Source of the DNA: Eledone cirrhosa
Taxonomy: Eukaryota
Reading direction: 5' to 3'
DNA length: 64,000 nt
NCBI GenBank assembly: GCA_964016885.1
Contig: OZ024748.1
Location: forward strand, 2,914,001-2,978,000
Shown: positions 33,606 through 59,354 of the stretch, piece after piece
Numbering within the stretch: the stretch's first letter is position 1
How the letters are laid out: the number at the start of each line of letters is the position of its first letter
The notes under the pieces: model-generated
What the model was told of the DNA's origin: nothing
The model's database searches: none
Seen by the model: only the letters and a program-made list of their open reading frames with translations
Position numbers and translations under genes: made by a program

Positions 33606-33672
33606 TATTTTATTATACATATTTCAGAGGTACTGAGTTAAGTTTAACAGTACGTCCTCATCAGATAAAATA
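33606..33672 (-). ncRNA. Type-I hammerhead ribozyme motif (family J)
   Basis: Minus strand: tattttat-CTGATGA-ggac-gtactg-ttaaacttaact-cagtac-ctct-GAAA-tatgta-TA-ataaaata; 8-bp perfect stem I. Confidence 0.8.
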
Positions 33673-42896: not shown

Positions 42897-42972
42897 TATC
42901 AGGGATTCCTGATGATTTCTAAAGAATGAAACAGTTCTAGTCCTGTAGAATCTCATCTATATTAAAACTTCT
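42897..42972. mobile_element. Family A fragment in opposite orientation, followed by a 17-bp tandem repeat (aaacttctatatata)
   Basis: atcagggattcctgatgatttctaaagaatgaaacagttctagtcctgtagaatctcatctatattaaaac. Confidence 0.8.
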
Positions 42973-52659: not shown

Positions 52660-52978
52660 TGTAGAGGTTATATTTAATTTGTTGGGATACAACAAGCAAA
52701 ATATTTTTATAACTGATATAAAGCACTCAACAAATTATTGGAGTAAATATACAATGTATTAACAAATGGAAACTATATTTATAAAACCAGGAGATTCCAA
52801 CCAGAATGGTTGAATTTTTTAAGGGTATGTCAATATTTATTTATAAAACTAACCTATATTATATTTTATCTGATGAAAGCGCACCATAGTTTTCTCTGGT
52901 GGCCCTTGAAATATGTATAATGAAATAAATATGGTTTTATAAATATAGTTTCCATTTGTTAATATATTGTATTATATT
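52660..52978. mobile_element. Family J fold-back element with intact HHR
   Basis: Inverted arms about 52746-52789 / 52933-52975; tattttat-CTGATGA-aagcgcacca..tggtggccctt-GAAA-tatgta-TA-atgaaata (52862-52927). Confidence 0.8.
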
Positions 52979-55310: not shown

Positions 55311-56276
<966 letters not shown>

Positions 56277-57324: not shown

Positions 57325-57500
57325 ATACAATGATATTAAATAAATGGAAACTATATTTATAAAACCTATTTGTTTTATTATATATATTTCAAGGGTACCA
57401 AGATACATTGGTACGCTTTCATCAGATAAAATACAAAGTTTGTTTTATAAATAGAGACATACCCATGAAAATCATACCTTATCGGTTGGAAATTCACTGG
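57325..57500 (-). mobile_element. Family J copy with intact HHR
   Basis: Minus strand: ttttat-CTGATGA-aagc-gtaccaa-tgtatc-ttggtac-cctt-GAAA-tatata-TA-ataaaa. Confidence 0.8.
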
Positions 57501-57526: not shown

Positions 57527-57630
57527 ACGAGTAGGACCCCGACGGCTGAGCTCAAACCATTTCGACGGCTAATTCTGGATTAACATTTTAGTCCAGAATT
57601 AGCCGTCGAAACGGCTTGAGCTCAGCCATA
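57527..57630. mobile_element. Family C fold-back copy
   Basis: ttcgacggctaattctgga / tccagaattagccgtcgaa arms. Confidence 0.8.
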
Positions 57631-57728
57631 TATATATGGCTGGTACACAGCTACATAGCGATCTTAGCCATTTTTGAATCTAAATTTGGCGCGGTCGGTT
57701 TGAGAAATTAAATGTCTGATTCTGAGTT

Positions 57729-57808
57729 TATCTCCTGATGAATCCTAACTCAGGACAAATCCATATTATTTGGATGTCCTAAATAAGGAAGAAACCATGG
57801 TAGAGATA
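57729..57808 (+). ncRNA. Canonical type-I hammerhead ribozyme motif
   Basis: tatctc-CTGATGA-atcct..aggaca..atcca/tggat..gtcct..aggaa-GAAA-ccatgg-TA-gagata. Confidence 0.85.
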
Positions 57809-58098
57809 TAATTACGGTATGTGCGCATTTCTTCTAAGTTTAATTTTACTACTAATTATGTGCGGTTGATGGTATATTTGATCGGATTCTGCATGCTGCC
57901 GAAATGTTTGATAAATAGTGGAACGGAGCTGCCGCGAAGAGGCTACGATCAATTGTTTGTCAGAGATTTCCCCGTAAGAAAATTTATTCTTAAAGCTTGC
58001 TAGATTTGATTATGTATATGGTTAATTATGCTAATTAGAAGAAGAAATAGTATATATTTTAATATCTGATTGATTCTATAGACATGATTTATGATATA

Positions 58099-58150
<52 letters not shown>

Positions 58151-58521: not shown

Positions 58522-59354
<833 letters not shown>

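What the first reader, a model, noticed from the sequence alone, without database searches (positions are those of the whole stretch)
57729..57808. Best intact hammerhead: canonical core, 6-bp stem I, extended stem II, palindromic stem III, GUA site
Seen: tatctc/gagata stem I, CTGATGA at 57735, multi-segment stem II, GAAA at 57791, self-complementary ACCATGGT. Predicted cleavage after 57802. Inference: active as a monomer or through stem III dimerisation.
Basis: partly seen in the sequence, partly recalled or inferred. Interest (0 to 1): 0.75.

Follow-up and report, generated by a model that had tools for sequence, protein, structure and literature searches.

The report
Dimer-type hammerhead in animal retrozyme copy
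This is a hammerhead self-cutting-RNA motif inside one shortened copy of a 675-letter jumping repeat that is very abundant in this animal genome; it would likely cut only when two copies pair up, and probably weakly, because this copy lacks the usual first base pair of one stem.

Summary
Every motif named is at the stated place, and the type I hammerhead layout is far beyond chance. Three corrections follow. (1) It is not a lone ribozyme. It lies in a 5'-truncated copy (57637-58097) of a ~675-nt non-coding repeat with at least 1,698 core-intact copies. Copies are dispersed or tandem, end in (TA)n and are often head-to-head: a non-LTR retrozyme with Penelope-type insertion marks. (2) The core is not fully canonical. 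The first stem II pair (10.1-11.1) is A.A, an inherited state of 280 copies, while 1,418 copies have another base (nearly always a pyrimidine) at 11.1. Three other hammerheads in the window keep that pair. (3) Monomer activity is unsupported (stem III probability 0.01), whereas two copies fold best as a double hammerhead. No partner copy lies in the window. Cleavage is untested and no parent element was found. The scan has noted other retrozyme families in this genome before. Verdict: new member of a known kind, with an unusual long pseudoknotted stem II.

The parts
57637..58097 (+). 5'-truncated copy (unit positions 232-690) of a ~675-nt non-coding retrozyme unit
   Evidence: 98.3% to the natural tandem unit L006:1247-1936; the only copy in the window
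57724..57727 (+). Likely pseudoknot 5' strand (GAGU), just 5' of stem I
   Evidence: covariation with 57748-51
57729..57734 (+). Stem I, 5' strand
   Evidence: compensatory U-A to C-G at pair 2 in 6 of 154 contexts
57735..57741 (+). Core C3-A9, CUGAUGA
   Evidence: 51-52 of 52 copies identical per position
57742..57790 (+). 49-nt stem II: A.A mismatch 57742/57790; IIa 57743-46/57786-89; internal loop; IIb 57752-56/57776-80; IIc 57760-63/57771-74
   Evidence: fold; covariation in IIa and IIb
57748..57751 (+). Likely pseudoknot 3' strand (ACUC) in the internal loop of stem II
57791..57794 (+). Core G12-A15.1, GAAA
   Evidence: 54 of 54 copies
57794..57801 (+). Self-complementary stem III, ACCAUGGU (8-bp duplex between two copies)
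   Evidence: duplex -11.2 kcal/mol, hairpin +2.9
57802..57802 (+). A17; predicted cut 3' of this base (unit position 397)
   Evidence: hammerhead geometry
57803..57808 (+). Stem I, 3' strand
57810..58090 (+). Long predicted rod-like hairpin in the 3' part of the unit
   Evidence: a whole circular unit folds at z -4.6 against 40 shuffles
58098..58150 (+). (AT)n tract at the element's 3' end, the likely insertion target
   Evidence: 34 of 35 arm ends are followed by (TA)n

Best explanation
This is the type I hammerhead motif of a 5'-truncated, solitary copy of an abundant 675-nt non-coding repeat; the repeat is likely a retrozyme pasted into (TA)n by borrowed Penelope-type enzymes, and the ribozyme would likely cut after 57802 only as a dimer and slowly. 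Family mechanism (inferred): multimeric transcripts of tandem copies pair two ribozymes through the ACCAUGGU palindrome. A 4-bp pseudoknot between the 5' flank of stem I and the internal loop of stem II would align the two helices. Cutting gives unit-length RNA, which would be circularised and then reverse-transcribed from AU-rich start points onto nicked (TA)n. This copy (shown): it lacks unit positions 1-231, has no same-family neighbour in the window and carries A.A at 10.1-11.1. It is therefore probably a spent insertion whose RNA, if read through, could be cut only with a second molecule. Odds: retrozyme identity 0.9; dimer dependence 0.8; pseudoknot real 0.7; this exact sequence cuts detectably as a dimer in vitro 0.5, as a monomer 0.1.
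For: Repeat: 2,019 candidates, the 40 scored at 95-100% identity. The unit period is 675 nt. Exact core patterns give 1,418 + 280 disjoint matches with 0 for the reversed controls. A tandem array on C1 shows 33 listed matches over 28 kb. Insertion marks: of 35 arm 3' ends at 23 loci, 32 fall at three fixed sites, 34 are followed by (TA)n and none is at the cut site; head-to-head truncated arms are common. These match the Penelope features in PMC8557442 passages. Young RT + GIY-YIG ORFs are present (938 aa; copies 96-98% identical), and one such Penelope-like family also ends in (TA)n. Selection on the fold: the core is the same in a subfamily only 71.5% identical and sampled off the ribozyme; compensatory changes occur in stems I, IIa and IIb. 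Pseudoknot: the variable pair is U-A 79, C-G 44, U.G 9, unpaired 2, motif missing 20 of 154 contexts, and never C.A. Dimer; precedent in PMC4209133 and PMC6765202. 5' ends pile up just after the cut site: 6 of 46 arms (0.92 expected) and 3 of 35 arms (0.67 expected).
Against: No cleavage data exist. No autonomous element carrying this unit as its terminal repeat was found: the copy beside a Penelope ORF in L141 is an independent insertion, since none of the other 29 fetched copies of that element's end continues into the unit. The U-A to C-G pseudoknot change is a single event on the tree. The 5'-end pile-up is confounded by AT-rich microhomology, because 7 of the 46 arms also end at an internal TA tract. 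With 60-nt flanks, predicted stem I falls to 0.05 for this copy and to 0-0.03 for paired relatives, so folding does not show the active state in context. In a recent test 8 of 9 predicted Xenopus retrozyme dimers did not cut. Rfam does not recognise the motif.
Confidence: 0.78

Rival explanations
1. The ribozyme of this A.A lineage is catalytically dead. The lineage spreads without cutting (as uncleaved multimers or by satellite-style amplification), and the core is merely inherited.
For: A.A at the most conserved stem II pair; PMC3088659 section 8 says U.U is the best-tolerated mismatch there, which makes A.A worse. 28 of 154 contexts also have A.A at 10.2-11.2. Many units of the C1 array have a broken stem IIa. 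Insertions can span two or three ribozymes. Competing hairpins appear in context.
Against: No inherited change in CUGAUGA, GAAA, the palindrome or the pseudoknot strands among 52-54 close copies, while neighbouring columns are polymorphic. A compensatory stem I change arose inside the A.A lineage (L015, L027, L098). U-A pairing is found in sister copies (19 of 52). 3 of 35 5' ends lie just past the cut site (p 0.03, confounded).
Confidence: 0.25
2. The A.A copies are weak enzymes but good substrates and are cut in trans by better-paired sibling RNAs in mixed dimers.
For: The substrate half (palindrome, GUA, GAGAUA) is shared, and mixed dimers fold as well as homodimers with the sibling's stem II fully paired. 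Variation in this lineage concentrates in the enzyme half's stem II base.
Against: The enzyme-half core letters stay conserved in the lineage, and its compensatory stem I change implies pairing with itself. There are no expression data showing co-occurring transcripts.
Confidence: 0.15
3. The ribozyme is an efficient monomer, with the pseudoknot compensating for the short stem III.
For: A monomeric coral retrozyme cut at about 0.8 per min (PMC7229834 passage). Pseudoknots raise rates strongly (PMC3088659 passages). ViennaRNA cannot score the pseudoknot.
Against: Monomer stem III probability is 0.01. The 8-nt palindrome is kept across subfamilies, which a monomer would not need. The A.A mismatch weakens the core.
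Confidence: 0.1
4. The repeat is simply the detached terminal repeat (pLTR) of a full Penelope-like or Naiad element rather than a self-standing retrozyme.
For: Penelope-type ends. PMC8557442 mentions Naiad 'half cores' with 35-50 nt spacing. The 2026 preprint finds retrozymes homologous to pLTRs.
Against: Whole units occur in head-to-tail arrays with no ORF between them. Of the 202 loci then held, only 6 rows (4 places) had both the unit and Penelope-like coding sequence, and none showed a consistent join. The 11-letter GAAA-palindrome motif is absent from the published Naiad, Chlamys and Hydra consensus files (line breaks could hide it).
Confidence: 0.12

Closest known systems
Metazoan non-LTR retrozymes (Cervera and de la Pena 2020, PMC7229834, passages read; Li, Clavereau and Pollet 2026, 10.64898/2026.07.22.740005, parts 1-3 of 5 read)
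   Same: Non-coding, AT-rich (33% GC) unit with one type I hammerhead, found as monomers, dimers and long arrays; strongly folding; co-occurs with Penelope-like elements.
   Different: The unit is 675 nt against 170-400 nt in the 2020 paper (within the 51-972 nt range of the preprint). Stem II is 49 nt in three segments. RNA, circles and cleavage are not shown here.
Palindromic-stem-III type I hammerheads of Penelope-like element terminal repeats (Cervera and de la Pena 2014, PMC4209133, parts 1-2 of 4 read)
   Same: 6-bp stem I, short palindromic stem III, predicted dimer action, solitary truncated and opposite-strand copies.
   Different: No linked RT-EN ORF was found; no extra base between 9 and 10.1 in this copy; A.A instead of the conserved G10.1-C11.1; much longer stem II.
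Hammerheads with a stem I-stem II pseudoknot (Perreault et al. 2011, PMC3088659, passages and section 8 read)
   Same: A short Watson-Crick helix links the stem I side to the stem II side; the paper predicts this in about 40% of hammerheads and reports a natural U.U mismatch at 10.1-11.1.
   Different: Here the partner strand lies in an internal loop of a long stem II and pairs with the 5' flank of a dimer-type type I motif. The mismatch is A.A. I did not see this layout in the parts read.
PK hammerhead resembling pistol (Zhan et al. 2024, PMC11300833, part 1 of 6 read)
   Same: Hammerhead core plus a pseudoknot.
   Different: There the pseudoknot replaces helix II; here helix II is present and the pseudoknot is peripheral.

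Membership tests
Type I hammerhead ribozyme | Conserved core CUGANGA, GAAA and UH around a three-way junction, open at stem I | tested here: met
   6 descriptor hits in the window against 0 in each of 200 shuffles
Type I hammerhead ribozyme | Base pair at 10.1-11.1 closing stem II (strongly conserved, not absolute) | tested here: not met
   A.A at 57742/57790; paired in 88 of 154 family contexts; natural U.U exceptions are known
Type I hammerhead ribozyme | Stems I-III formable and supported by covariation | tested here: met
   stems I and II; stem III only between two molecules
Type I hammerhead ribozyme | Match to an Rfam hammerhead model | tested here: not met
   probably due to the 49-nt stem II (inference)
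Type I hammerhead ribozyme | Site-specific self-cleavage | not testable with these tools
   only an indirect, confounded 5'-end pile-up
Non-LTR retrozyme | Non-coding repeat unit with one type I hammerhead, in tandem and dispersed copies | tested here: met
   no Pfam hit for the 2 open frames tested inside the copy
Non-LTR retrozyme | Stable, rod-like circular monomer fold | tested here: met
   -169.6 kcal/mol against a shuffle mean of -140.2, z -4.6, 40 shuffles
Non-LTR retrozyme | Unit-length linear and circular RNA in tissues | not testable with these tools
Penelope-like element (autonomous) | RT plus GIY-YIG ORF between the terminal repeats | tested here: not met
   no tblastn hit in the window and no consistent join in 202 loci
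Penelope-like element (autonomous) | 5' truncation, partial tandems, inverted truncated arms, microsatellite targets | tested here: met
   compared with PMC8557442 passages

The most novel reading that the evidence does not exclude
A lineage of 280 or more retrozyme copies with a crippled stem II base has spread by being cut in trans by better-paired siblings through the shared ACCAUGGU palindrome: cheater ribozymes complemented in mixed dimers, in a family that uses an undescribed internal-loop pseudoknot to dock stems I and II.
Probability: 0.15. Interest if true: 0.7.

Novelty: new member of a known kind. Interest (0 to 1): 0.36.

Why it matters
As a single motif it is ordinary: one of well over a thousand copies in a genome crowded with hammerhead repeats. 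The family is more useful than the copy. It supplies a natural series at the most conserved stem II pair (G-C, A-U, U-A, A.A, G.A, U.U, A.C) in lineages that all amplified recently. That lets one test how much cutting a retrozyme needs in order to spread, and whether weak copies are rescued in mixed dimers. The long pseudoknotted stem II escapes Rfam and short-stem descriptors, so such ribozymes are probably undercounted in animal genomes.

Tried and rejected
Rfam: no hammerhead match. Expression: no RNA holder listed, so nothing can be said either way. Parent search: the GIY-YIG search (150 scored of 10,597 candidates, 30 loci fetched) and 11 long-ORF regions gave Penelope-like ORFs. The one adjacent family copy (L141) proved to be an independent insertion. 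A long-stem-II hammerhead beside the ORF in L127 proved to belong to a separate 459-nt repeat. An early idea that A11.1 is invariant in the family was an artefact of my pattern and was overturned. An early idea that upstream partial copies never cross the cut site was dropped, because dimers and trimers do cross it. A private decay mutation or assembly error at 57742/57790 was rejected: 280 copies share A.A. Host gene context: 70 open frames scanned gave 1 weak HTH hit in a transposase-like fragment, so no evidence of a host exon. A Naiad origin was checked only by a motif search in the supplement of PMC8557442 (0 hits). Lunse et al. 2017, the closest paper on dimeric Penelope hammerheads, was not held; I saw it only as cited in PMC6765202, so it may already describe similar variants. 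bioRxiv supplements were not seen. Literature searches listed no paper on this family.

Full report
Observation. A strict type I descriptor finds 6 motifs in the window and none in 200 block shuffles. A looser core pattern with spacers up to 38 nt, which excludes this motif, finds 14 against 0.44 expected. The window is therefore crowded with hammerheads of several families. Two claims fail. The first pair of stem II is A.A (57742/57790), and three other motifs in the window keep a pair there, so this is neither fully canonical nor clearly the best. Rfam has no hammerhead match.

What it sits in. The window lies on a chromosome-scale contig of a 3.0-Gb, microsatellite-rich animal genome. The stretch has 2,019 candidate copies; the 40 scored are 95-100% identical. 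Tandem copies define a 675-nt unit, and the window holds one copy, unit positions 232-690 at 57637-58097, ending in (AT)n. Exact core patterns give 1,418 copies with a non-A base at 11.1 and 280 with A.A; an overlapping pattern for A at 11.1 gives 241. All reversed controls gave 0. One array on C1 shows 33 listed matches over 28 kb, all A.A. A natural unit folds as a circle far better than shuffles (z -4.6, 40 shuffles).

How it inserts. At 23 distinct loci chosen on the region downstream of the ribozyme (30 fetched, 7 duplicates merged), the 35 arm 3' ends fall at unit positions 13-15 (20 arms), 131 (11), 114 (1) and elsewhere (3). 34 of them are followed by (TA)n and none lies at the cut site. 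Head-to-head truncated arms and partial tandems are common. These are the marks described for Penelope-like elements (PMC8557442, passages). Because copies run across the cut site, the template must have been a circle or an uncut multimer (inference). The genome holds young RT + C-terminal GIY-YIG ORFs (938 aa; copies 96-98% identical), and one related Penelope-like family also ends in (TA)n. Their cysteine-rich linker suggests the Neptune clade (label, not tested by tree). No such element was found to carry this unit as its own end, so the borrowing of enzymes is inferred.

Is the fold under selection? A subfamily 71.5% identical over the unit, sampled on sequence outside the ribozyme, keeps the same core and palindrome (6 deviations in 425 core cells among 25 copies, against 120 in 3,751 upstream cells). 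In 154 distinct contexts (most selected by core patterns, so core conservation there is not evidence), pair 10.5-11.5 is G-C 69 and U-A 62, and stem I pair 2 is U-A 141 and C-G 6. In a 39-row alignment (40 thinned rows, one dropped for lacking its 5' flank), 93% of cells pair and 5 of 17 pairs change on both sides; slid controls give 24-43%. Stem IIa was out of register in that alignment and was counted separately.

A missed pseudoknot. GAGU just 5' of stem I (57724-27) can pair with ACUC in the internal loop of stem II (57748-51). The variable pair is U-A 79, C-G 44, U.G 9, unpaired 2, motif missing 20 of 154, and never C.A. In the alignment the other three pairs hold in 37-38 of 39 rows. On a tree built from sequence outside the ribozyme, C-G forms one clade, so this is one compensatory event. 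U.G wobbles appear separately in the A.A lineage. An unrelated 459-nt repeat shows the same layout by eye. I rate the pseudoknot likely (0.7). Stem I-II pseudoknots are common and rate-enhancing in hammerheads (PMC3088659).

Monomer or dimer. In a monomer, stem III costs +2.9 kcal/mol and has probability 0.01. Between two molecules it is an 8-bp duplex of -11.2 kcal/mol, and the best joint fold of two copies is exactly the strand-swapped double hammerhead (-50.6 against -39.0). This agrees with dimer-dependent animal type I hammerheads (PMC4209133 parts 1-2, PMC6765202 passages). Against over-reading: with 60-nt flanks stem I drops to 0.05 here and to 0-0.03 in paired relatives. The palindrome occurs once in the window, so no partner is available in cis within it.

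The A.A mismatch. It is inherited, not private. On the tree the window copy sits in a supported clade with A at 11.1, where A.A and U-A copies interleave (25 of 52 close copies have A at 10.1, 19 have U, 7 a gap). PMC3088659 section 8.1-11.1 the most conserved pair after 15.1-16.1 and U.U the best-tolerated mismatch, so A.A should be slower (inference). Yet the lineage amplified as recently as the G-C one (95-99% against 97-98% among the best-scored copies), keeps its core letters and shows a compensatory stem I change. Residual activity as a dimer is my best reading. A dead lineage and trans rescue by siblings are the rivals; mixed dimers fold as well as homodimers.

Indirect trace of cutting. 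Arm 5' ends fall within 13 nt after the cut site in 6 of 46 arms of the G-C subfamily (0.92 expected, p 0.0004) and in 3 of 35 arms of the window's subfamily (0.67 expected, p 0.03). The same stretch is AT-rich, and 7 of the 46 arms end at another TA tract, so microhomology may explain part or all of this.

Comparison. It works like, and by the testable features belongs to, the animal non-LTR retrozymes (PMC7229834 passages; preprint parts 1-3). In that preprint 8 of 9 predicted dimers did not cut, which is a caution. It is not an autonomous Penelope-like element. The long, internally pseudoknotted stem II and the amplified A.A state are the unusual points. I did not see them in the papers read, but Lunse et al. 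2017 was unavailable. Earlier notes of this scan describe other retrozyme families with the same kind of ends in this genome; none matched this sequence.

Verdict. A real hammerhead motif in a spent copy of a retrozyme; likely dimer-dependent and weak; a new member of a known kind; interest 0.36.

Noticed in passing
window 7147, 13485-13536, 13756, 28914, 33606-33672, 41732, 42902-42954, 52862-52927, 54032, 55869, 57373-57431, 62511: Fourteen hammerhead core patterns against 0.44 by chance, from several repeat families; the nearest is 300 nt upstream on the minus strand with an A-U closing pair and a different palindromic stem III.
   Followed up: partly
L071, L090, L094, L096, L128, L129, L131, L134, L139: Several unrelated hammerhead families in this genome start stem II with U.U or A.A instead of a pair, so the mismatch may be a recurring trait here.
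   Followed up: no
L127:6010-6919; L161:1-787: An unrelated 459-nt tandem repeat whose hammerhead has a 50-nt stem II, U.U at 10.1-11.1 and a possible GGAAA/UUUCC pairing between the 5' flank and the internal loop, the same layout as this finding.
   Followed up: partly
L127 about 5600-5640; L141 about 6610-6655: The 3' ends of two Penelope-like families show, by eye, a possible minimal hammerhead with a U3-A8 core variant and an ACCGGU palindrome.
   Followed up: no
G000 C1:92,987,000-93,015,000 (L099-L120, L136, L137): An array of about 42 units, the 33 listed all A.A and many with a broken stem IIa, next to an inverted copy that has a paired A-U.
   Followed up: partly
window 57527-57627 and 58718-58823: A long near-perfect hairpin formed by head-to-head pieces of another repeat, directly 5' of the element; only sub-threshold miRNA-type Rfam hits.
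   Followed up: no
window 55592-56212: A broken transposase-like fragment (weak HTH_32 hit); mariner-like by recalled resemblance only.
   Followed up: no
L126:3809-6622 (minus strand): An uninterrupted 938-aa RT + GIY-YIG reading frame with copies 96-98% identical, a candidate source of enzymes in trans.
   Followed up: partly
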